Source of the DNA: Pasteurella multocida
Lineage (GTDB): Bacteria; Pseudomonadota; Gammaproteobacteria; Enterobacterales; Pasteurellaceae
Assembly (NCBI RefSeq): GCF_900187275.1
Contig: NZ_LT906458.1
Location: 1,950,001-1,982,000, forward strand
DNA length: 32,000 nt
Direction of reading: 5' to 3'
The first letter of the stretch is position 1. The number at the start of each line of letters is the position of its first letter. Shown here piece after piece: positions 954 to 27,504 of this stretch. Both the position numbers and the translations under genes were made by a program. Under the pieces are notes generated by a model. The model did not search any database, was not told the origin of the DNA, and saw only the letters and a list, made by a program, of their open reading frames with translations.

Positions 954-2063
954 TTACGCCACAAGTTGTTTTAAAATACGGCGAAGTGGCTCAGCGGCAC
1001 CCCAGAGTAATTGGTCGCCCACTGTGAACGCGGCTAAATATTCCGGTCCCATTTTGAGTTTACGTAAACGACCAACGGGCACAGATAAAGTCCCTGTCAC
1101 TTTGGTTGGCGTCAGTTCACGTAAGGTCACGTCTTTTTCATTTGGGATCACTTTCACCCATTCATTGTGACTTGCAAGAATTTGTTCAATTTCTTCAAGT
1201 GGTAAATCTTTTTTCATTTTGATGGTGAAAGCTTGGCTGTGGCAACGCAATGCACCGATACGCACACATAAACCATCAACAGGAATTGGACTGTCGTCTA
1301 AGCCAAGAATTTTATTGGTTTCCGCATAGCCTTTCCATTCTTCTTTGGTTTGACCATCTTCCCAGAGTTTATCAATCCACGGAATTAAGCTCCCTGCCAG
1401 TGGTGCACCAAAGTTTTCAATCGGTAAATCACCGCGCATTTTTGCTGTTACTTTACGTTCAATGTCTAAAATGGAGGAGGCTGGATTATCTAAATCCACT
1501 TTCACGCTGTCTTCAAGTTGACCCATTTGTACCAATAATTCGCGCATGTTTTTCGCACCCGCACCACTTGCTGCTTGGTATGTTGCTACAGACACCCATT
1601 CTACTAAATCACGTTCAAATAAACCGCCTAACGCCATTAACATTAAACTCACAGTACAGTTACCGCCAACGTAGGTTTTAATGCCATTTTTTAAGCCTTC
1701 GCTGATGACATTTTGGTTCACTGGATCAAGCACGATAATCGCGTCTTTTTCCATGCGTAATGCGGACGCGGCATCAATCCAATATCCCTTCCAACCTGCT
1801 GCACGTAATTTCGGATACACCTCGTTGGTATAATCACCACCTTGACAGGTCACGATAATGTCTAATTTTTGTAATTCAGCGATATCAAAAGCATCTTTCA
1901 GCTCACCCGCTTGCTTGCCACCAAATACGGGGGCGTTTTGACCCGCTTGTGATGTGGTAAAAAACACAGGATTGATATTGGCAAAGTCATTTTCTTCTTG
2001 CATACGATCCATCAAGACGGACCCCACCATCCCACGCCAACCGATAAAACCAACGTTTTGCAT
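954..2063 (-). CDS. asd: aspartate-semialdehyde dehydrogenase
   Basis: 369-aa ORF with [21 protein letters not shown]...[17 protein letters not shown]...[15 protein letters not shown]...[18 protein letters not shown]. It is near-identical in pattern to gamma-proteobacterial Asd (active-site GGNC). Confidence 0.97.
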
Positions 2064-2332
2064 AAAATTTTCCTTATCTAAAAATATGAATGATATTGTG
2101 TTTGAATAAAGCTAATTAATTACAAGATCGTTTCAATAAATGCAAGCCTTTTTATCTATAAAATAATCAAAGTTAATGATTTTTTGCTTTTTGTAAATAG
2201 CGCATTGATTTTTTTGAAGGATATTTAGTAAAAGTCGGGTAAACATCGTATTGCATACAATCAATGGATTTTTTGGGATGTTTTGTTTCTGCACCTGTCA
2301 GGGATGAGCGCTATCTTTAGTTGGATACACAT

Positions 2333-2370
2333 ATAAAAAATCTGCACATTAAACTATGTTAATGTGCAGA
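2333..2370 (-). terminator. rho-independent terminator downstream of tkt
   Basis: Perfect 12-bp stem TCTGCACATTAA (2341-2352) / TTAATGTGCAGA (2359-2370) with a 6-nt loop. On the minus strand it is followed by TTTTTT (complement of 2335-2340). Confidence 0.85.
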
Positions 2371-2394
2371 TTGTGTGTTGAGCTAAAAGACAGA

Positions 2395-4401
2395 TTAGAG
2401 AATTTCTTTGGCTTTCGCGACCACGTTTTCAACGGTGAAACCAAAGAGTTTGAACAATTGGTCAGCTGGTGCGGATTCACCAAAACTGTTCATCCCCACA
2501 ACACGTCCCTCAAAGCCCACATATTTGTACCAGAAGTCCGCAATACCCGCTTCAATCGCAACACGTTTTGTTATGTGGCTTGGTAACACGCTTTCACGGT
2601 AAGCCGCATCTTGTTTATCAAACACATTGGTGCTCGGCATAGAGACAACACGCACTTTTACCCCTTCTGCATCTAAAACATCCGCTGCTTTCATCGCCAA
2701 TTCCACCTCAGAACCGGTCGCAATCAAGATTAAATCTGGGCAAGTTTGGTTTTCACAGCAGTGACGTAATACATAACCACCACGTGCCACATTGGCTAAC
2801 TGCTCAGCAGTGCGGTCCATTTGCGCAAGATTTTGACGAGTAAAAATTAACGCACTAGGTCCCTCTTTACGTTCCACCGCCGCTTTCCACGCCACCGCCG
2901 ATTCCACTTGGTCACATGGACGCCATGTTTCCAAATTTGGAATTAAACGTAAAGCAGACGTTTGTTCAACCGGTTGGTGAGTTGGACCGTCTTCACCAAG
3001 CCCAATAGAGTCGTGGGTGTAAACAAATAATGAACGTTGTTTCATTAATGCCGCCATACGCACCGCATTGTGTGCATATTCCATAAACATCAAGAAAGTG
3101 GCACCATAAGGAATGAAACCACCATGTAACGCAATACCATTCATAATCGCCGACATACCAAACTCACGCACACCGTAGTTGATGTAGTTACCATCGGCAT
3201 TTTCTACTGCACGGATTGGTTTGGAACCTGACCAGAGGGTTAAGTTTGAGCTGGCTAAATCCGCTGACCCACCTAAAAACTCCGGTAATAATTTAGCATA
3301 GGCTTCAATTGCATTTTGTGACGCTTTACGGCTGGCAATGCTCGCCGGATTCGCTTGTAAATGTTCAATAAAGGCTTGTGATTCTGCCGCCCAGTTTGCC
3401 GGTAGCTCCGCATTCACACGACGGGTAAATTCCGCCGCTAATTCTGGGTAAGCTTTGGCATAAGCTGCCAATTTTTCTTCCCACGCTTTTTCAGCAACTT
3501 GACCTTTTTCTTTCGCATCCCACTGTGCATAAATCTCCGCAGGAATTTCAAACGGGGCATGCTCCCATTTTAAGAATTCACGTGCTGCCGCAATTTCATC
3601 ATCACCTAATGGAGCACCATGACAATCGTGTGAGTTGGCTTTATTCGGTGAACCATAACCGATAATGGTTTTACAAATAATGAGCGTTGGTTTGGTTGTC
3701 TCCGCTTGGGCTTGTTTCACCGCCTCAAGAATTTGTTCTGGATTATGACCATCTACCGCAGGAATCACATGCCAACCATAGGCCTCAAACCGTTTTTGCG
3801 TATCATCAGTGAACCAACCGTCCACATGACCATCAATTGAGATATTGTTGTCGTCATAGAAGGCAATTAGTTTACCTAACCCTAGAGTACCCGCTAAAGA
3901 ACAAGCTTCATGAGAAATCCCTTCCATTAAACAACCATCGCCTAAGAACACATAGGTGTGGTGGTCAACAATTTCATGACCTGGACGGTTAAATTGATGG
4001 GCAAGGGTTTTCTCCGCAATCGCAAAACCCACTGCGTTCGTAATCCCTTGACCTAATGGTCCTGTTGTGGTTTCAACACCCGGCGCATAACCATATTCTG
4101 GGTGTCCCGGTGTTTTGGAATGTAATTGACGGAATTGTTTTAAATCTTCAATAGAAAGGTCATAACCACTTAAATGTAATAAACTGTAAATCAGCATTGA
4201 ACCATGACCATTGGATAAAATGAAACGGTCGCGATCGGCCCAGTGTGGATTGCTTGGGTTATGTTTTAAAAAGTCACGCCATAAGACTTCTGCAATATCT
4301 GCCATCCCCATCGGTGCACCTGGATGCCCTGATTTTGCTTTTTGCACTGCATCCATACTTAAAAAACGAATGGCATTTGCCAGTTCTCTACGTGTTGCCA
4401 T
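2395..4401 (-). CDS. tktA: transketolase
   Basis: The ORF-track protein matches transketolase throughout ([47 protein letters not shown]). I place the start at the internal Met ([15 protein letters not shown] = complement of 4399-4401) because AGGAG lies 7 nt upstream. The 10 extra N-terminal codons in the track have no RBS. Confidence 0.96.
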
Positions 4402-4572
4402 AGTGATTACTCCTAAGTAATTAAGACTCAAATTTGAGCAGTATTTTACGCTATTTTACTGCTAAAGGATAATGAATTTCTTGCTTGTCTATGAGGCTTG
4501 AAGATTCATTTTCTTTTTTTATTAAACACTCTATACTGTATTAAGTAACTTATATTCAATACAGGAAAAAAG

Positions 4573-5388
4573 ATGAAATATCAAGTCATTGCATTTGATC
4601 TTGATGGCACCTTATTAAATCGCCAAGGTCAAATTCTTCCCACCAGTAAAAAAATCATTCAGCATTGTCTGGATAAAGGGCTCAAGGTCATGCTCGTGAC
4701 CGGACGACACCACACTGCAGCATACCCTTATTATCATGAACTGAATTTAACCACGCCGATGATTTGTTGTAATGGGACTTATGTTTATCAACCACAAACC
4801 GATCAAGTACTCAGTGCAAACCCGCTTTCTTTATCGCAAGCGAAAACAGTAGTGCAACTGGCTGAAAAGTATGGGCTTCATTTACTCGTGTATTCGCGTG
4901 ATGCCATGAACTACGCTGTATTAAATGAGCACATGAGAAAATTTTCTCAATGGGTCCAACATTGTCCTCCTCACGTACGCCCGCATTTATGTCAGGTTTC
5001 AGATTTTCACGCGTTGCTGGATGATAAGGAAACTATCTGGAAATTCGTGATCAGTCATCCTGAACGTGACACAATGCTCAAGGCTGTCCAAGCACTTTCA
5101 CCAACGGAGTTTAGTTGCGAATGGTCTTGGGTTGATCGTGTTGATATCGCCAATGCAGGTAACACGAAAGGCGCAAGACTTTTAGAATTACTGAACTCCT
5201 GGCACATTGCACCTCAACATGTGATTGCGTTTGGGGATAATCATAACGATATCTCTATGTTAAGTGCAGTGGGGCTCGGTGTCGCAATGGGCAATGCTGA
5301 AAACGAGGTTAAACAACAGGCGGATTTGATCACGTTGAGCAATGATGAAGACGGAATCGCGTCTGTCCTTGCTACCGTTCTCGACTAA
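4573..5388 (+). CDS. Cof-type HAD-IIB family sugar-phosphate phosphatase
   Basis: 271 aa with HAD motif I FDLDGTLL at residues 8-15, motif GDNHNDISM near the C-terminus, and AGGA 8 nt upstream of the ATG. Substrate cannot be inferred. Confidence 0.8.
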   Translation: MKYQVIAFDLDGTLLNRQGQILPTSKKIIQHCLDKGLKVMLVTGRHHTAAYPYYHELNLTTPMICCNGTYVYQPQTDQVLSANPLSLSQAKTVVQLAEKYGLHLLVYSRDAMNYAVLNEHMRKFSQWVQHCPPHVRPHLCQVSDFHALLDDKETIWKFVISHPERDTMLKAVQALSPTEFSCEWSWVDRVDIANAGNTKGARLLELLNSWHIAPQHVIAFGDNHNDISMLSAVGLGVAMGNAENEVKQQADLITLSNDEDGIASVLATVLD

Positions 5389-5402
5389 TCACCTTTTAAG
5401 GA

Positions 5403-5438
5403 TAAAGAGCTAAAGTACCTCCTTTAGCTCTTTTGCTT
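5403..5438. terminator. bidirectional hairpin terminator between convergent HAD gene and sgbE
   Basis: 12-bp perfect stem AAAGAGCTAAAG (5405-5416) / CTTTAGCTCTTT (5423-5434) with T-rich ends on both strands. Confidence 0.6.
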
Positions 5439-5446
5439 AGCGCGTT

Positions 5447-6142
5447 TTATTGCCCGTAATACGCGTTTTTCCCATGTTTACGTAAGTAGTGTTTATCTAG
5501 CAATTCTTGCTGCATCGACGCTAAATTTGGACGCAGTTGACGACTAAATAAATTCATATAGCCAATCTCTTCCAGAACCACTGCATTATGTACGGCATTA
5601 TCAGGATCGGTACCCCAAGCAAAAGGACCATGAGAGTGCACTAATACTGCTGGTACATCTTTCGGATCGATTCCTCTCACACGGAATGTTTCCACAATCA
5701 CTTTGCCGGTTTCAAGCTCATATTCGCCTTGAATTTCGGCAGGGGTCATTTTACGTGTACAAGGAATTGAACCATAGAAATAATCAGCATGAGTCGTCCC
5801 CGCCGCAATCAAATCTTCACCGGCTTGCGCCCAAATCGTAGCGTGGCGTGAGTGAGTATGAACAATCCCGCCTAAGCTTGGAAATTGACGATAAAGTTCT
5901 AAATGGGTCGCGGTATCTGAGGAAGGTTTTTTGTTGCCTTCCACCACTTGCCCTGTAAAGAGGTCAACTACTACCATATCCTCCACTGTCATGGTGTCAT
6001 ACTCTACGCCGGAGGGCTTAATCACAACTAAATTTTTTTCTCTGTCGATGCCACTCACGTTACCCCAAGTAAATGTCACTAACTTGTATTTGGGTAATGC
6101 CAAATTGGCTTCAAACACTTTTTGTTTCAATTCTTCTAACAT
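5447..6142 (-). CDS. sgbE: L-ribulose-5-phosphate 4-epimerase
   Basis: Matches the AraD/SgbE/UlaF family ([39 protein letters not shown]). The start is set at MLEELKQ (ATG = complement of 6140-6142), which aligns with the E. coli SgbE N-terminus MLEQLK. It overlaps the sgbU stop by 7 nt. The sgb assignment rests on operon context with yiaK. Confidence 0.9.
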
Positions 6143-21962: not shown

Positions 21963-22784
21963 TTAACGGCTTTTTTGATTACATTCAGCATAAGCCCAAT
22001 GGTTTGTCGGTCCATGACCATGACCGATATTGAGCGGATGACTAATCGCAGCGGTTATAAAGGCTTTCGCGGTTTTTACTGCATCCACCACTTGTGCTCC
22101 TTTGGCTAATTCCGCGGCAATACAGGCTGAGAAGGTACAACCTGTCCCGTGAGTATGGCGCGTGTTAAAGCGCGGACTGTCGAAATGCAAGATTTCTGTT
22201 GGGGTTAACAACCAATCACGACAGACATCACTTTGTGAGTTTTCACTATGTCCCCCCTTGATCACCGCATGGCGTACACCCATTGCGCGTAATTTTTCTG
22301 CTGCTTCACAGGCGGTGTTATCATCGACAATGTTGATGCCTGTGAGTGCTTCTGCTTCGGGTAAATTGGGTGTGATAACTTCAGCTTTTGGCACCAATAA
22401 GGTGCGCAATGCCTCTACAGCATCAGGTTCTAACAAGGCAGCACCGCCTTTGGCGTACATGACGGGATCCAATACCATTCTGCCAAAATCATATTTTTTG
22501 AGTGCGTGAGCGATACATTCGATAATCGCTGTATTGCCTAACATGCCGATTTTGAATGCATTCACTTGGTAATCGTCTGCAATGGCTTTTAATTGCCCTT
22601 CAATAATATTCAATGGCACCGGATGAATATCATATACACCAAGACTATTTTGCACGGGAATGGCAGTAATGGTGGTCATGCCAAAAACACGTTGCATCTG
22701 GAAAGTTTTTAAATCCGCTTGGAAACCTGCGCCACCACAATTATCTGAGCCAGCGATGGTTAAGGCGATAGGAATGTTACTCAT
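21963..22784 (-). CDS. thiD: hydroxymethylpyrimidine / phosphomethylpyrimidine kinase
   Basis: ThiD pattern [21 protein letters not shown]...[12 protein letters not shown]...[11 protein letters not shown]. The start is set at MSNIPIAL (ATG = complement of 22782-22784), which overlaps the thiM stop as ATGAGTAA. The 27 upstream codons in the track lie inside thiM. Confidence 0.93.
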
Positions 22785-23580
22785 AAGAAATCCTTGCATA
22801 TTGATTGATTGTTTCAAGTGAAAGGTGGGCAAGTTGATCCAGCAAGCCCACATAAAATTGTCCATGTTGTGTTGTTTTTAATCCTTGCGCAGCAAGTTCA
22901 CCAGCAATGGCATAGGCAGTGCAAGCTTCTAACATGGCATCAAAATACTGTTCAGGTTTCGCTACCGCTAAAAAGGCACCACACACCGCACTTAATAAGC
23001 AACCTGACGCGGTGATTTTTGGAAATAAGGGCGTACCATTATGGATTTGCGCATGGTGTTCGCCATCACTAAGATAATCAGTCGCGCCGCTTATCATGGC
23101 AATGCATTGGTATGTTTTTGCCACGATATGCGCAATCTGTGCTAAATCGGCTTCGCCCGATCCCGCGTCCACTCCTTTCGCTTGCCAATTCACCTCTGCG
23201 ATTGTCGCTAGCTCACCAGCATTACCACGAATGGCAGCAAATTTGACTTCTTTTAGTAGCCTTGCCACCGTTTGTTTGCGGAAGGTGATTGCGCCAACAC
23301 CAACCGGATCAAGCACCACGGGAATACCTACTTCATTGGCTGTTTTACCCGCTAAGACCATGGCATCGACTTCTTTGCCCATTAAGGTACCAATGTTGAT
23401 CACTAGCGCTTGGCTAAGACGAGGTACTTCGTGCATTTCTTCCATTGCCGCAGACATCAGCGGTGAGGCACCAATCGCTAACAGTCCGTTAGCGGAAAAA
23501 TTCGCCGCTACCACGTTAGTGATATTGTGGATAAGGGGATTTTGGGATCGGATTTGTTGTAAGTATGTTGTGTTTAGCAT
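22777..23580 (-). CDS. thiM: hydroxyethylthiazole kinase
   Basis: 267 aa with [30 protein letters not shown]...LDPVGVGA...IRGNAGE...[10 protein letters not shown]. It is collinear with E. coli ThiM. Confidence 0.93.
22985..22993 (-). repeat. USS core (ACCGCACTT)
   Basis: Exact 9-mer, inside thiM. Confidence 0.9.
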
Positions 23581-23641
23581 GTTGTTTGTTACTTTTGGGT
23601 TAGGTTTTTGTATTATTTATCGGCTTTCGCCCGATGGGCGA

Positions 23642-23715
23642 CCTTCTTTCTTTTGTTTGCCGAAAAGAAAGAAGGCAAAGAAAAAGGCACCCCCGATTAA
23701 GTTGCTGGACCTCAT
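23642..23715 (-). repeat. left arm of inverted repeat (74 nt) including a perfect 13-bp hairpin (23642-23654 / 23663-23675)
   Basis: The minus-strand reading ATGAGGTCCAGCAACTTAATCGGGGGTGCCTTTTTCTTTG-CCTTCTTTCTTTT-CGGCAAAC-AAAAGAAAGAAGG aligns with the plus strand of 23995-24063. Confidence 0.85.
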
Positions 23716-23860
23716 TTCACCCTCATTTTATTCATAGAATGTGAGCAGACTACGTACTACTACATTGGTGTCACTTTCCTAACAATCATGTTACCGTATG
23801 GGCAACGTACAGGTAGAAAGTGTCTTGTTACGTGTTTAATCAGAAACTTTCCAAAAATGC

Positions 23861-23869
23861 ACCGCACTT
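23861..23869 (-). repeat. USS core (ACCGCACTT)
   Basis: Exact 9-mer in the interior of the inverted-repeat-bounded element. Confidence 0.9.
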
Positions 23870-23994
23870 TCGATTATCTTTGGGTGAACCACTTCCCCGT
23901 GTAAGTTGCCCGAAGGGAAAAGACATTTTTAAGAAAATAACGTTGCGCAACGAAGTGAAGACAACTTATTTTCTGTTAAAAAAATGGCTTTGAC

Positions 23995-24063
23995 ATGAGG
24001 ACCAACAACTTAGTCGGGTCGCCTTTCTTTGCTTACTTTCTTTGGCGAAGCAAAGAAAGTAAG
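23995..24063 (+). repeat. right arm of inverted repeat (69 nt) including a perfect 13-bp hairpin (24032-24044 / 24051-24063)
   Basis: ATGAGGACCAACAACTTAGTCGGGTCGCCTTTCTTTG-CTTACTTTCTTTG-GCGAAG-CAAAGAAAGTAAG. The first 24 nt are 21/24 identical to the left arm, and the stem differs from the left arm only by three compensated base pairs. Confidence 0.85.
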
Positions 24064-24066
24064 AAA

Positions 24067-25014
24067 TCATTTAATCTCTACCGCATAATCGGATAATGGT
24101 TTCACCACTTTCGTCAACCCGTTCGCTTTCAGGAATTCTGCCATGCGCTCATAGCGGTGGCTATCTAACGCTCTTGGACGTAAAGCTAAACGGGGTAAAG
24201 TATCTGTCCACGCAAGACGGTTGAGATCATTGTTTAATTCTTTTTCCTTGTAAGCCACAAATGCCTCCCACGCGGCTTGCGGGTGATTTAAGGTATAGAT
24301 GGTGGCTTGCTCAAGTGCGGTTAAAAATTTGCTGATTTTCTCTGTCGGCATTGTATTTTTATTCGCAACCAAAATGAGCTCATCGTACACTGGGACGCCA
24401 TGTTCTTCCGGATAGAACGCCCGTCCCGGTTGTTTTTCTAATTTCATTTGGTTTAATTCAAAGTTACGGAAACCGCCGATTACAGCATCCACTTGACCAC
24501 TTATTAATGACGGTGAAAGTGACCAGTTAACGTTGACCATTTCGATATCTTTATCCGTTAAGTTTGCCGAACCTAACATCGCTTTTAATAAGGAATCTTC
24601 GAAACCACTGACGGAATAACCAATTTTTTTGCCTTTTAAATCGGCAAGGCTTTTAATTGCACTTTTTTCTAACACAATTAAGCTGTTAAGCGGCGTTGCC
24701 ACTAAGGTGCCAACACGGGTGAGTGGTAAATCTTCTGCCACTTGAATTTGTAACTGGGGTTGATAATCCACCGCTAAATCCGCTTTTCCTGCAGCCACTA
24801 ATTTAGGTGGTAGAGAGGGATCAGCAGGCTCTACAATTTCAACGTCTAACCCCTGTTGAGCAAAATAGCCTTTTTGTTGTGCTACGATAATTGCTGCATG
24901 GTCAGGGTTGACGAACCAATCAAGTAATAAGGTGAGTTTTTCTTTGGCGGATACCGACAGGCTTACTCCCATGGCAAATGCGACAGTAAGGGTTTTTTTC
25001 ACGAGTTTTTGCAT
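24067..25014 (-). CDS. thiY: ABC transporter substrate-binding protein, NMT1/THI5-like (pyrimidine-moiety / formylaminopyrimidine binding ThiY type)
   Basis: 315 aa with signal peptide MQKLVKKTLTVAFAMGVSLSVSA and the NMT1-like pattern LLLDWFVNPDHAAIIVAQQKGYF. It clusters with tenA and the thiX/thiZ-type permease and ATPase downstream of a TPP riboswitch. Confidence 0.82.
   Translation of the reverse strand: MQKLVKKTLTVAFAMGVSLSVSAKEKLTLLLDWFVNPDHAAIIVAQQKGYFAQQGLDVEIVEPADPSLPPKLVAAGKADLAVDYQPQLQIQVAEDLPLTRVGTLVATPLNSLIVLEKSAIKSLADLKGKKIGYSVSGFEDSLLKAMLGSANLTDKDIEMVNVNWSLSPSLISGQVDAVIGGFRNFELNQMKLEKQPGRAFYPEEHGVPVYDELILVANKNTMPTEKISKFLTALEQATIYTLNHPQAAWEAFVAYKEKELNNDLNRLAWTDTLPRLALRPRALDSHRYERMAEFLKANGLTKVVKPLSDYAVEIK
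24313..24321 (+). repeat. USS core (AAGTGCGGT)
   Basis: Exact 9-mer, inside thiY. Confidence 0.9.
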
Positions 25015-27233: not shown

Positions 27234-27325
27234 GGGCAGAAACCAAGAGGTTAGCGCTTAGCGTTGAAAAAATGAAATGAGATCGGAATGAAGAATGAAA
27301 AAATATGATCGGATTATTGGCATAA

Positions 27326-27413
27326 TTAGTTTCCTACGTCAGTGTTAGCTGTATCAGGTTCACGGGTATCATCTCAGCTTTGTACAATTTGGTTACAAAG
27401 CACCCCGACTAAA
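27326..27413 (-). promoter_or_regulatory. TPP (THI-box) riboswitch aptamer
   Basis: The minus-strand RNA is UUAGUCGGGGUGCUUUGUAACCAAAUUGUACAAAGCUGAGAUGAUACCCGUGAACCUGAUACAGCUAACACUGACGUAGGAAACUAA. It contains every conserved block of the family in the correct order: GGGGUGC, a P3 hairpin, CUGAGA, ACCC, ACCUGAU and CGUAGGAA. P1 is UUAGU/ACUAA. Confidence 0.9.
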
Positions 27414-27504
27414 GTGAAATAAGACTACCTTTTTTCGTCAAAAAGAGAAGAATTTTGTTAAAAAATTGTGATCTTTGTCACGGAATTAATCCTATGTTGC
27501 TTGT

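What the first reader, a model, noticed from the sequence alone, without database searches (positions are those of the whole stretch)
23642..24063. 422-bp element bounded by ~70-bp inverted repeats whose terminal 13-bp hairpins are preserved by three compensatory base-pair swaps
**Arm alignment (seen directly).**
- The minus-strand reading of 23715->23642 aligns with the plus strand of 23995->24063.
- The first 24 nt are 21/24 identical (ATGAGG-N-CCA-N-CAACTTA-N-TCGGG).
- A pyrimidine spacer follows, with 3 nt of indel in total.
- Both arms then end in a perfect 13-bp stem.

**Stems.**
- Left: CCTTCTTTCTTTT / AAAAGAAAGAAGG. Right: CTTACTTTCTTTG / CAAAGAAAGTAAG.
- They differ at 5'-arm positions 2, 4 and 13, and each change is matched by the complementary change in the 3' arm (C-G to U-A, U-A to A-U, U-A to G-C).
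- The loops are unrelated (8 nt versus 6 nt).
- Pairing is therefore being maintained rather than sequence, either by selection on an RNA/DNA structure or by intra-palindrome correction.

**Interior and setting.**
- The arms enclose 279 bp (23716-23994) with no ORF of 40 codons or more, one USS and small palindromes (for example CGTTGCGCAACG at 23941-23952).
- The right hairpin starts 3 nt after the thiY stop. The left hairpin ends 61 nt before the thiM ATG.
- The element therefore fills nearly the whole 486-bp gap in an otherwise tightly packed, partly overlapping gene array.
- I see no flanking direct repeat (target-site duplication), and there is no transposase or recombinase in the window.

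**Candidate interpretations.**
- A non-autonomous MITE-like insertion.
- A segment invertible by recombination between the arms.
- A divergent pair of structured small RNAs.
- mRNA processing or stability hairpins that split the thi array into two units.
Basis: seen in the sequence. Interest (0 to 1): 0.78.

Follow-up and report, generated by a model that had tools for sequence, protein, structure and literature searches.

The report
Nested-palindrome repeat element in thi operon
The 422-bp feature between thiY and thiM of Pasteurella multocida is real: it is one copy of a non-coding, hairpin-forming repeat family that also occurs in many copies in Ralstonia, Burkholderia-group and other bacteria, apparently undescribed, and one half of it has stayed almost unchanged while the neighbouring genes diverged by about 20%.

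Summary
The whole stretch 23646-24059 is an inverted duplication of a ~205-nt unit. Each unit folds into a ~125-nt rod hairpin plus the 13-bp terminal hairpin; 23 of 48 pairs show compensatory changes. It is not thi-specific. A second copy lies between dapF and yigA in P. multocida. Elements of 420-660 bp with the same ~50-nt end module occur in Ralstonia, Caballeronia, Paraburkholderia, Variovorax and Chitinibacter, at up to 40+ places per replicon. A covariance model built only from the beta-proteobacterial modules hits both window arms (65.6 and 48.9 bits) and nothing else in 32 kb. Relatives have empty thiY-thiM junctions (22-37 bp), and a Ralstonia locus is polymorphic for the element. 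The small ORFs in the arms do not keep their frame, no Rfam family matches, and I found no transposase, target duplication or alternative orientation. Best reading: a REPIN/MITE-like nested-palindromic repeat acquired before P. multocida and Bisgaard Taxon 45 split. Its ends look like bidirectional terminator/hairpin modules. The thiY-proximal half is 98-99% conserved against 80-87% for the flanking genes, so it may have been co-opted. Function and mobilising enzyme are unknown.

The parts
23627..24066 (.). Whole element: a nested palindrome made of two inverted ~205-nt units that fills the thiY-thiM spacer
   Evidence: Self reverse-complement alignment of 23646-24059, 434 nt at 63%. Spacer fold z = -8.1. 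Related species have 22-37 bp at this junction.
23853..24066 (+). Unit U-right (thiY-proximal, reads towards thiY): rod hairpin plus terminal module; hyperconserved
   Evidence: 23895-24066 is 98.3-99.4% identical in every pair among P. multocida and three Bisgaard Taxon 45 lineages. thiY and thiM are 80-93% identical, with third codon positions around 60%.
23617..23852 (-). Unit U-left (thiM-proximal, reads towards thiM): diverged paralogue of U-right
   Evidence: Homology to U-right and to the L010 unit. Only 85-92% conserved. It carries 1-2 nt indels in the G-run and ATG>ATA in L009.
23896..24018 (+). Rod hairpin of U-right: P1 23896-23908/24006-24018, P2 23919-23930/23980-23991, P3 23932-23940/23966-23974
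   Evidence: the repeat finder I14 and I15. RNAalifold consensus on 7 units. 23 of 48 pairs have changes on both sides, against 9.8 +/- 1.8 in shuffles and 3-6 in slid controls.
24017..24067 (+). Right terminal module: CCTTTCTTTG, CTTAC-TTTCTTTG, loop, CAAAGAAA-GTAAG
   Evidence: Covariance model R1, built only from beta-proteobacterial copies, scores 65.6 bits, E = 4.9e-13.
23638..23690 (-). Left terminal module
   Evidence: R1 scores 48.9 bits, E = 3.2e-9.
24031..24063 (.). Right 13-bp hairpin CTTACTTTCTTTG / CAAAGAAAGTAAG. An alternative 12-bp pairing exists at 24023-24034/24048-24059.
   Evidence: I4, I8; sequence.
23642..23675 (.). Left 13-bp hairpin CCTTCTTTCTTTT / AAAAGAAAGAAGG
   Evidence: I5.
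23627..23641 (+). GC-rich hairpin TCGCCCGATGGGCGA followed by the pyrimidine arm. It reads as an intrinsic terminator for transcription entering the element from the thiM side.
   Evidence: Terminator scan. The same arrangement is found at both ends of the Caballeronia and Paraburkholderia copies. Pairing is kept in L010 through a double deletion, TCGCCATCGGCGA.
23864..23872 (-). Uptake signal sequence (AAGTGCGGT) close to the symmetry centre
   Evidence: family D1; sequence.
23617..23715 (-). 32-codon ORF in the left arm (MRSSNLIGGAFFFAFFLFGKQKKEGRPSGESR). Judged non-coding.
   Evidence: The frame is shifted in L002, L003 and L009, and the ATG is lost in L009. No family match, and the sequence is not in the protein collection.
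23995..24096 (+). 33-codon ORF in the right arm. Judged non-coding.
   Evidence: No Shine-Dalgarno sequence. The homologous position is CTGAGG in L015. Three of the 4 substitutions among alleles are non-synonymous (read directly).
23966..24070 (-). 34-codon ORF on the operon strand whose ATG overlaps the thiY stop (ATGA). Unresolved; probably non-coding.
   Evidence: Three of the 4 substitutions among alleles are synonymous. The frame is not kept at the dapF locus.

Best explanation
**What it is (shown)**
- The feature is one copy of a dispersed, non-coding, nested-palindromic repeat family, comparable to very large REPINs or to MITE/BIME-type elements.
- The copy consists of two inverted ~205-nt units. 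Each unit folds on its own strand into a ~125-nt rod hairpin followed by a ~50-nt end module.
- The end module reads: GC-rich stem, CTTTCTTTG, nTAC-TTTCTTTG, loop, CAAAGAAA-GTAn, then a GC-rich hairpin.

**History (shown by comparison)**
- It entered the thiY-thiM intercistronic spacer in the common ancestor of P. multocida, Bisgaard Taxon 45 and the L010 organism. More distant relatives have a 22-37 bp junction there.

**Why the hairpin changes are compensated (shown)**
- The folded single strand is what is maintained. The inner 8 bp of the end hairpin are invariant across bacterial classes, the outer pairs covary, and wobble pairs point to the outward-reading strand.

**How it probably works (inferred)**
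- The end modules are the cis-acting sites through which the family spreads, recognised as hairpins by an unidentified trans-acting enzyme.
- The same modules act as compact two-way intrinsic terminators, because a GC stem is followed by a U-rich run on either strand.
- In this locus the thiY-side end has no outer GC stem. Riboswitch-controlled thi transcription can therefore enter, and thiMDE must be read through the element.
- In that read-through RNA the two arms can pair into a helix of about 50 bp. Such a structure would block 3' exonucleases or invite RNase III, uncoupling thiY-upstream and thiMDE mRNA levels.
- The near-frozen thiY-proximal unit suggests that this half has acquired a host-level role.
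For: **Family membership**
- A distant BLAST search finds a second P. multocida copy between dapF and a DUF484 (yigA-like) gene. It also finds both arms, at the same ~437-bp spacing, in 134 Ralstonia replicons, and single terminal-module matches in Caballeronia, Burkholderia, Paraburkholderia, Variovorax and Chitinibacter.
- Full copies lie at unrelated intergenic loci, with 15-40+ places per replicon.
- Model R1, built without any Pasteurella sequence, hits both window arms at 65.6 and 48.9 bits and nothing else in the window above 15 bits.
- Every full element has its two modules as an outward-facing -/+ pair.

**Structure**
- RNAalifold and pair counts on 7 Pasteurellaceae units: 92.8% paired, and 23 of 48 pairs with double changes (0 of 500 shuffles reach this; slid controls give 3-6).
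- End hairpin in beta-proteobacteria: 96.9% paired. Position 18-46 is U.G in 8 of 15 copies.

**Acquisition and turnover**
- Empty junctions: P. oralis 37 bp, L013 22 bp. [H.] felis and L012 have unrelated REP-like sequence at the same site.
- The Ralstonia glgX-glgB locus has full, solo-hairpin and empty alleles.

**Non-coding**
- ORF frames differ between copies, the ORFs are absent from the protein collection, and there are no Pfam or NCBIfam hits.

**Terminator-like ends**
-.

**Read-through requirement and long-range helix**
- The only TPP riboswitch is at 27314-27417. The spacer fold has z = -8.1.

**Conservation**
-.
Against: - There is no direct target-site duplication at the window junctions. 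In Ralstonia the flanking 12-mer is duplicated in inverted, not direct, orientation, so the presence/absence polymorphism could reflect hairpin deletion rather than insertion.
- No transposase, RAYT or other partner was found.
- Only two loci are known in P. multocida. Strict pattern scans of genome and metagenome collections found only this locus.
- The conserved module lies inside genus-specific outer repeats, unlike classical terminal inverted repeats.
- The terminator calls come from a simple consensus scan. That scan did not call the Ralstonia ends.
- No sigma-70-type promoter was predicted in the element.
- I have no transcript, end-mapping or RNase data.
- The 98-99% conservation of U-right fits a host function better than a selfish one. 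The L010 unit, from an about equally distant species, is only 79% identical, which is unexplained.
Confidence: 0.6

Rival explanations
1. Domesticated small RNA gene. U-right, and originally both units, would be transcribed outward from the element centre as a structured RNA of about 170-200 nt (rod plus U-rich end). This RNA, antisense to the thiY 3' end, would be the selected function in P. multocida and Taxon 45.
For: - U-right is 98.3-99.4% conserved, with a sharp drop to 76-78% at adjacent synonymous sites.
- Wobble pairs favour the outward strand: 14 G.U against 6 A.C, and U.G in 8 of 15 copies at one hairpin pair.
- The rod is followed by a U-rich tract, and outward-facing terminator-like sites were called in Caballeronia and Paraburkholderia.
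Against: - No sigma-70-type promoter was predicted.
- No Rfam family matches.
- The tail is not a canonical terminator in the window.
- The L010 unit sits in the opposite orientation relative to the operon and is only 79% identical.
- There are no expression data.
Confidence: 0.2
2. Small-protein genes. Either the two arms encode divergent ~32-aa hydrophobic-basic peptides (type I toxin-like), or the 34-codon operon-strand ORF coupled to the thiY stop by ATGA is a real gene.
For: - Both arms start with ATG, and the left one has a GAGG 6 nt upstream.
- In the minus-strand ORF 23966-24070, 3 of the 4 substitutions among alleles are synonymous third-position changes.
Against: - The frames are shifted by 1-2 nt indels in L002, L003 and L009.
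- The ATG is lost in L009 (ATA) and in L015 (CTG).
- Frames differ between genera and at the dapF locus.
- None of the seven small ORFs tested is in a 15-billion-protein collection, and there are no family hits.
- Phe- and Lys-rich peptides follow automatically from a pyrimidine/purine hairpin.
- Conservation continues about 70 nt beyond the ORF.
Confidence: 0.06
3. Invertible DNA switch. Recombination between the arms would flip the 279-bp interior and change which promoter or leader faces thiM.
For: - The arms are long inverted repeats.
- In L010 the sequence homologous to the window's plus strand 23845-24058 faces thiM.
Against: - The window, L001, L008, L014, L002, L003 and L009 all have one orientation.
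- The window contains no recombinase.
- The arms are only about 80% identical.
- The L010 arrangement is explained equally well by the two paralogous halves decaying differently.
- The same architecture recurs at unrelated loci in other genera.
Confidence: 0.03
4. thi-specific cis-regulatory leader, such as a riboswitch or attenuator for thiMDE.
For: - It lies directly upstream of thiM.
- The module allows alternative hairpins (I4 versus I8).
- The left arm contains GGGGUGCC, which resembles a TPP-aptamer segment.
Against: - There is no TPP or other Rfam match in the spacer at E <= 10.
- The same element sits between dapF and yigA, glgX and glgB, next to glyA, and at other unrelated loci.
- Relatives do without it.
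Confidence: 0.03
5. Neutral local inverted duplication with no family and no function.
For: In the window alone the arm occurs only at this locus.
Against: - Homologous modules occur in at least seven genera.
- R1 scores 65.6 and 48.9 bits on the window arms.
- Covariation is strong.
- Conservation exceeds that of the flanking genes.
Confidence: 0.02

Closest known systems
REP/BIME elements and REPINs (REP doublets forming hairpins, mobilised by RAYT transposases)
   Same: - Non-coding, intergenic and often intercistronic.
- Palindromic, with two inverted halves that fold into a long hairpin as single strands.
- Mosaic arrangement with other short palindromes.
- Many copies have a CTAC...GTAG stem head.
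- Presence/absence turnover at a fixed site.
   Different: - 420-660 bp rather than 20-150 bp.
- The core hairpin is AT-rich and 85-94% identical between Pasteurella (about 40% GC) and Ralstonia (about 67% GC), whereas REPs are species-specific.
- Low copy number in P. multocida.
- No RAYT link has been shown.
Correia elements (CREE/NEMIS) of Neisseria
   Same: - A MITE-like palindromic element in transcribed intergenic regions.
- Correia elements fold into a long hairpin in mRNA, are cut by RNase III, and can carry promoter or terminator activity (my knowledge of the literature). The same effects are plausible here.
   Different: - There is no sequence similarity to the Correia inverted repeats.
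- There is no TA duplication.
- The element is about three times longer and built of two rod-forming units.
- The family spans several bacterial orders.
ERIC/IRU and other enterobacterial imperfect palindromes
   Same: A conserved imperfect palindrome that is co-transcribed with its neighbours and varies in presence between species.
   Different: - No match in 5,426 E. coli genomes.
- Different sequence and size.
- Double-unit architecture.
Classical MITEs (non-autonomous derivatives of insertion sequences)
   Same: - Terminal inverted symmetry.
- No coding capacity.
- Dispersed copies.
- Empty sites in relatives.
   Different: - No target-site duplication.
- No cognate transposase-bearing element found.
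- The most conserved part is subterminal in Burkholderiaceae.
Bidirectional intrinsic terminators
   Same: Each end offers a GC stem followed by a U-rich run on both strands.
   Different: - The sequence is conserved across classes, which termination alone does not require.
- The ends are embedded in a large mobile-looking palindrome.
- Termination is untested.

Membership tests
CTTTCTTTG-hairpin nested-palindrome repeat family (defined here from beta-proteobacterial copies) | End module of about 50 nt: pyrimidine tract, nTAC-TTTCTTTG, loop, CAAAGAAA-GTAn | tested here: met
   R1, trained on 15 beta-proteobacterial modules only, scores 65.6 bits (24017-24067 +) and 48.9 bits (23638-23690 -). 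Training-set copies score 54-75 bits.
CTTTCTTTG-hairpin nested-palindrome repeat family (defined here from beta-proteobacterial copies) | Two modules in outward-facing inverted orientation, 400-600 bp apart, enclosing two mutually inverted halves | tested here: met
   Window modules are -/+ and 327 nt apart, as in L016, L017, L019, L020 and L024-L028. Self-inverted alignment covers 434 nt.
CTTTCTTTG-hairpin nested-palindrome repeat family (defined here from beta-proteobacterial copies) | Each half folds into a long rod hairpin | tested here: met
   Ralstonia rods are shown (I7, I8).
CTTTCTTTG-hairpin nested-palindrome repeat family (defined here from beta-proteobacterial copies) | Several dispersed copies in the same genome | tested here: inconclusive
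   Two loci are known in P. multocida, thiY-thiM and dapF-yigA, but they come from different strains. I could not scan a whole genome. Caballeronia and Paraburkholderia have 15-40+ places per replicon.
MITE | Terminal inverted repeats and no coding capacity | tested here: met
MITE | Direct target-site duplication flanking the element | tested here: not met
   No direct repeat is seen when the window junctions are compared with the empty P. oralis junction. The flank duplication in Ralstonia is inverted, although a GGGG(A/C)CGA direct-repeat reading cannot be excluded.
MITE | Filled and empty sites among related genomes | tested here: met
   Pasteurellaceae; Ralstonia.
MITE | Cognate autonomous element with matching ends and a transposase | not testable with these tools
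   The tools cannot list all places of a repeat in a genome. Nothing was seen in the roughly 3-6 kb fetched around 13 copies.
REP / REPIN-RAYT | Short palindrome with a GTAG/CTAC head, in inverted doublets | tested here: inconclusive
   CTAC...GTAG is present in the Ralstonia-left, L010, L015-left and YI23-left copies. The window has CTTAC/GTAAG and CCTTC/GAAGG.
REP / REPIN-RAYT | Associated RAYT (Y1 transposase) gene flanked by the repeats | not tested
   None was seen in the fetched loci, and no genome-wide search was possible.
Correia element | Characteristic 26-bp inverted repeats and a TA duplication | tested here: not met
   The sequence read bears no resemblance. The Correia consensus is recalled from memory.
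Any Rfam 15 family (including the TPP riboswitch) | Covariance-model match | tested here: not met
   Only sub-threshold generic miRNA-hairpin hits were found in the window spacer, L015 and L016. The TPP riboswitch matches only at 27314-27417.
Type I toxin-antitoxin locus | Conserved small hydrophobic ORF with a maintained reading frame | tested here: not met
   Frame shifts and start-codon loss among orthologous and paralogous copies. No PADLOC search was run; Pfam and NCBIfam were negative.
Invertible promoter/segment switch | Both orientations present in populations and a site-specific recombinase nearby | tested here: not met
   Seven assemblies share one orientation. No recombinase ORF lies among the neighbours.

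The most novel reading that the evidence does not exclude
The ~50-nt AT-rich hairpin module could be the cis-site of an unrecognised hairpin-dependent system: a mobilising enzyme, or a dedicated termination or RNA-processing factor. The module is 85-94% identical between Pasteurellaceae and GC-rich Burkholderiales and is absent from Rfam. Such a system would be shared across beta- and gamma-proteobacteria. In P. multocida and Taxon 45, one half-element (23895-24066) would have been domesticated into a sequence-constrained functional RNA or DNA site at the 3' end of thiY.
Probability: 0.25. Interest if true: 0.8.

Novelty: new variant of a known kind. Interest (0 to 1): 0.6.

Why it matters
- **The finding changes scale.** An apparently local oddity turns out to belong to a repeat family that spans bacterial orders. 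Its core hairpin sequence is held almost constant in genomes of 40% and 67% GC, while the rest of the element drifts with the host.
- **That pattern implies a partner.** It is the signature of a cis-site read by a conserved partner that has not been identified.
- **It is a usable test case.** The P. multocida copy is single, sits inside a riboswitch-controlled operon and has a near-frozen half. It could show whether such palindromes act as terminators or insulators, RNase III or exonuclease barriers, or small-RNA genes.
- **It affects annotation.** The arms produce spurious small ORFs and N-terminal extensions; in L010, thiM is called as 311 aa.

Tried and rejected
- **Rfam.** Scans of the spacer (E <= 10), the whole window, and the Ralstonia and dapF copies gave only generic miRNA-precursor hairpin noise. 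There are no tRNA or tmRNA genes.
- **Small ORFs as genes.** Pfam and NCBIfam were negative. An exact look-up of seven ORFs was negative. Frames are not conserved. Rejected.
- **Degenerate TPP aptamer in the left arm (GGGGUGCC).** No covariance-model support. Rejected.
- **pheL-like Phe leader (FFFAFF).** This follows from the pyrimidine tract and the frame is not conserved. Rejected.
- **Strict arm-pattern scans.** The genome contigs, metagenome contigs and viral-contig scans found only the orthologous locus, which at first suggested a single-copy feature. Only blastn with short words against the plasmid/chromid collection revealed the family.
- **Other collections.** Phage and E. coli collections gave no match.
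- **Literature.** Searches by raw sequence, MITE/Ralstonia, GTAG/CGTC repeats, REPIN/RAYT and P. multocida sRNAs found no description. This does not prove that none exists.
- **Considered from memory and dropped without a formal test.**
  - attC, IS200/IS605-type ends, group IIC introns and IncP iterons: none fitted the two-fold symmetric ends.
  - Triplex/H-DNA potential of the repeated CTTTCTTTG tracts: noted only.
- **Recent inter-species recombination as the cause of U-right identity.** Disfavoured, because synonymous-site identity in thiY falls to 76-78% immediately next to the element, and all lineage pairs show 98-99%.
Full report
**Setting.** The window comes from Pasteurella multocida: its ThiM sequence is found under that name on 484 contigs. 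All relevant genes are on the minus strand. A TPP riboswitch lies at 27314-27417 and is the only Rfam match in the 32 kb at gathering threshold. It is followed by ABC-transporter genes, tenA, and an NMT1/ThiY-type binding protein at 24067-25014. A 486-bp gap comes next, then thiM (22777-23580; NCBIfam equivalog, 333 bits), thiD, thiE and an MFS transporter.

**The observation.**
- The 24-nt arm core occurs twice in the window, against 0.00 expected by chance.
- The three hairpin differences are each compensated.
- The symmetry is larger than reported. 23646-24059 aligns with its own reverse complement over 434 nt at 63% identity. The feature is therefore an inverted duplication of a ~205-nt unit: U-right on the plus strand (23853-24066) and U-left on the minus strand (23852-23617).
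- A GC-rich hairpin at 23627-23641, just outside the stated left end, also belongs to the element.
- The statement that the interior has no ORF of 40 codons is not strictly right. A 57-codon GTG ORF lies at 23820-23993. Nothing supports it as a gene.

**Coding or not.**
- Each arm begins with ATG and opens a 32- or 33-codon ORF encoding a Phe-rich and then Lys-rich peptide. I took this seriously as a possible type I toxin pair.
- In Bisgaard Taxon 45 the left arm carries 1- and 2-nt deletions in the G-run. In one strain the start codon reads ATA.
- At the paralogous dapF locus one arm reads CTGAGG.
- Frames differ again in Burkholderiaceae.
- None of seven small ORFs is present in a 15-billion-protein collection, and Pfam and NCBIfam are silent.
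- A pyrimidine tract followed by its complement yields Phe/Leu and then Lys/Glu in any frame.
- I conclude that the arms are non-coding.
- One loose end remains. A 34-codon ORF on the operon strand (24070-23966) starts with an ATG that overlaps the thiY stop (ATGA). Three of the four substitutions seen among alleles are synonymous in it. The frame is not kept at the dapF locus, and conservation runs about 70 nt past its stop.

**Orthologous junctions (identities below are for the ThiM protein).**

| Organism or locus | ThiM identity to window | thiY-thiM spacer |
|---|---|---|
| P. oralis | 82% | 37 bp |
| Metagenomic relative L013 | 79% | 22 bp |
| [Haemophilus] felis | 80% | 141 bp of unrelated REP-like palindromes |
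| L012 | 82% | 128 bp of unrelated REP-like palindromes |
| P. multocida, three Taxon 45 lineages, L010 | 84-100% | the element |

The element was therefore acquired once, in the ancestor of the P. multocida, Taxon 45 and L010 group. The junction is also a turnover hot spot: felis and L013 share 93.6% thiM nucleotide identity yet differ by about 120 bp here.

**Conservation.**
- Between P. multocida and Taxon 45, thiY and thiM are 80-87% identical at the DNA level, and third codon positions are about 60% identical.
- U-right (23895-24066) is 98.3-99.4% identical in every pairwise comparison. This includes Taxon 45 lineages that are themselves only 84-93% identical in the flanking genes.
- Synonymous-site identity in thiY is 76-78% in the 150 nt next to the element, so the boundary is sharp. 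This argues against a simple recombination tract.
- U-left is less constrained, at 85-92%.
- In L010 the roles appear swapped. The well-preserved unit faces thiM and is 79% identical to U-right. The thiY-side unit has a different rod.
- I cannot explain why an about equally distant species shows 79% where Taxon 45 shows 99%.

**Structure.**
- Each unit folds into a rod followed by the 13-bp hairpin. In U-right the rod helices are:
  - P1: 23896-23908/24006-24018
  - P2: 23919-23930/23980-23991
  - P3: 23932-23940/23966-23974
- On seven Pasteurellaceae units, RNAalifold recovers this structure.
- Pair counting gives 92.8% standard pairs. Twenty-three of 48 pairs have changes on both sides, against 9.8 +/- 1.8 in shuffles (0 of 500 reach this) and 3-6 when partners are slid.
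- G.U pairs outnumber A.C mismatches 14 to 6 on the outward-reading strand.
- In the read-through (minus-strand) RNA of the whole spacer, the predicted minimum-energy fold is -161.8 kcal/mol, z = -8.1. In that fold:
  - the terminal hairpins fold locally;
  - the two arms pair with each other over about 50 bp.

**The family.**
- Strict pattern scans of the genome, metagenome and viral collections returned only the orthologous locus.
- A short-word blastn against the plasmid/chromid collection changed the picture:
  - A second P. multocida copy lies between dapF and a DUF484 (yigA-like) gene. Its hairpin starts 6 nt after the dapF stop.
  - Both arms match at 85% identity and the same ~437-bp spacing in 134 Ralstonia megaplasmids.
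  - The terminal module alone matches at 89-94% in Caballeronia, Burkholderia, Paraburkholderia, Variovorax and Chitinibacter.
  - Reading the Caballeronia/Burkholderia, Paraburkholderia and Variovorax loci shows full two-ended elements there too. Only one full module was found in Chitinibacter.
- In Caballeronia and Paraburkholderia, copies of 550-640 bp sit at unrelated intergenic sites, with 15 to more than 40 places per replicon.
- Interiors are genus-specific (GC-rich in Ralstonia) but keep the two-rod architecture and an apical GAGCG(A/T)AGCGAG motif.
- The end module is nearly the same everywhere.
- A covariance model built only from 15 beta-proteobacterial modules scores the window's right arm at 65.6 bits (E = 5e-13) and the left arm at 48.9 bits (E = 3e-9). 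Nothing else in the window scores above 15 bits.
- In every full element the two modules form an outward-facing -/+ pair.
- Within the module the inner 8 bp are invariant and the outer three pairs covary. One pair is U.G in 8 of 15 copies, which would be a C.A mismatch on the other strand.

**Mobility.**
- The Ralstonia glgX-glgB spacer exists in three states among strains:
  - full element;
  - a solo 13-bp hairpin flanked by inverted CCCCTGCCGGGG;
  - empty, a CGTC-type REP-like hairpin whose apex is that 12-mer.
- The flank duplication is inverted rather than direct. I therefore cannot tell insertion at a hairpin apex from deletion of an unstable palindrome.
- I found no target-site duplication in P. 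multocida either.
- I did not find a transposase or RAYT partner, and the tools could not enumerate all copies in a genome.

**Ends as terminators.**
- Reading inward, each end is a GC-rich hairpin followed by the pyrimidine arm. A simple scan calls this as an intrinsic terminator at both ends in Caballeronia and Paraburkholderia, and at the left end in the window.
- Reading outward, a GC stem (or the base of the rod) is followed by the first CTTTCTTTG tract. This is called in Caballeronia and Paraburkholderia too.
- The scan did not call the Ralstonia ends, so this reading is suggestive only.
- In the window, the thiY-side end abuts the stop codon and has no outer GC stem.
- thiMDE has no riboswitch of its own, so transcription must cross the element.

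**Comparison with known systems.**
- The element works like a REPIN/BIME, or like a Correia- or ERIC-type palindromic repeat.
- It fails the MITE criterion of a direct target duplication. It bears no resemblance to the Correia repeats as I recall them. It has no match in 5,426 E. coli genomes, no match in the phage collection and no Rfam family.
- Literature searches by sequence and by topic found no description.
- I class it as a new variant of a known kind. An existing description may lie outside the searchable library.

**Verdict.**
The invertible-switch reading is unsupported. The small-RNA and mRNA-processing readings remain open.
- What is shown:
  - membership of a dispersed cross-order repeat family;
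  - the folded architecture, with strong covariation;
  - acquisition at this junction;
  - non-coding status;
  - unusual conservation of the thiY-proximal half.
- What is inferred:
  - hairpin-dependent spread by an unknown enzyme;
  - terminator or insulator activity of the ends;
  - the effect on thi mRNA.

Noticed in passing
window 27314-27417 (-): This is the only TPP riboswitch in the window (66.6 bits), upstream of the transporter/tenA/thiY genes. thiMDE has none of its own, so thiamine control of thiMDE implies transcription across the palindromic element.
   Followed up: partly
window 23966-24070 (-): A 34-codon ORF (MISYFLCFAKESKQRKATRLSCWSSCQSHFFNRK) starts with an ATG that overlaps the thiY stop as ATGA. 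Three of the four substitutions among P. multocida and Taxon 45 alleles are synonymous third-position changes. The ORF is not in the protein collection, and its frame is not kept at the dapF copy.
   Followed up: partly
L004 2360-2500; L012 2112-2239; L013 2479-2500: In [Haemophilus] felis and a metagenomic relative the same junction holds unrelated REP-like palindromes (GTAGGGA...TCCCTAC, GGACGCCAGCGTGGCGTCC). L013 has 93.6% thiM nucleotide identity to felis but only 22 bp here, so small palindromes turn over quickly at this site.
   Followed up: partly
L003 (window-orientation) about 700-770: One Taxon 45 strain has extra sequence between U-left and thiM. It looks like a partial duplicate of the module plus a GC hairpin (AAAGAAAGTCACTCGCCACCGGCGAAG).
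   Followed up: no
L008 (P. multocida CP196965.1) 1065-5487: thiY, thiM, thiD, thiE and the MFS gene are all called as fragments in this assembly (for example thiY as 143 + 170 aa and thiM as 205 + 69 aa). This could be decay of the thi locus or homopolymer errors in the assembly.
   Followed up: no
L010/L011 370-1305: In this relative the arm ORF runs in frame into thiM, and the gene is called as 311 aa instead of 267. This is an annotation artefact caused by the element.
   Followed up: partly
L019 3560-4095; L021; L022; L023: The Ralstonia glgX-glgB spacer has three alleles: full element, solo 13-bp hairpin, and empty. The element sits at the apex of a CGTC-type REP-like hairpin, and the outer ~42-nt units (TTGGTGGTGCATCC...CCCCTGCCGGGG) are themselves tandemly repeated.
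   Followed up: yes
L026 1036-1086 (-): Burkholderia sp. RPE67 has a third end module about 480 bp upstream of a complete element. This suggests tandem or array-like arrangements. An annotated hypothetical protein (1234-1497) lies between the modules.
   Followed up: no
window 23864-23872: A Hin-type uptake signal sequence sits almost at the symmetry centre of the element. The L010 unit has a degenerate version (ACCGCTCTT) at the corresponding place.
   Followed up: no
L017, L028, window 23716-23730: A short motif ATGAGGG(C/T) recurs about 15-100 nt inside the end module in Pasteurella, Caballeronia and Paraburkholderia (AAGGAGGGTG in Ralstonia). Its role is unknown, and no conserved ORF follows it.
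   Followed up: partly
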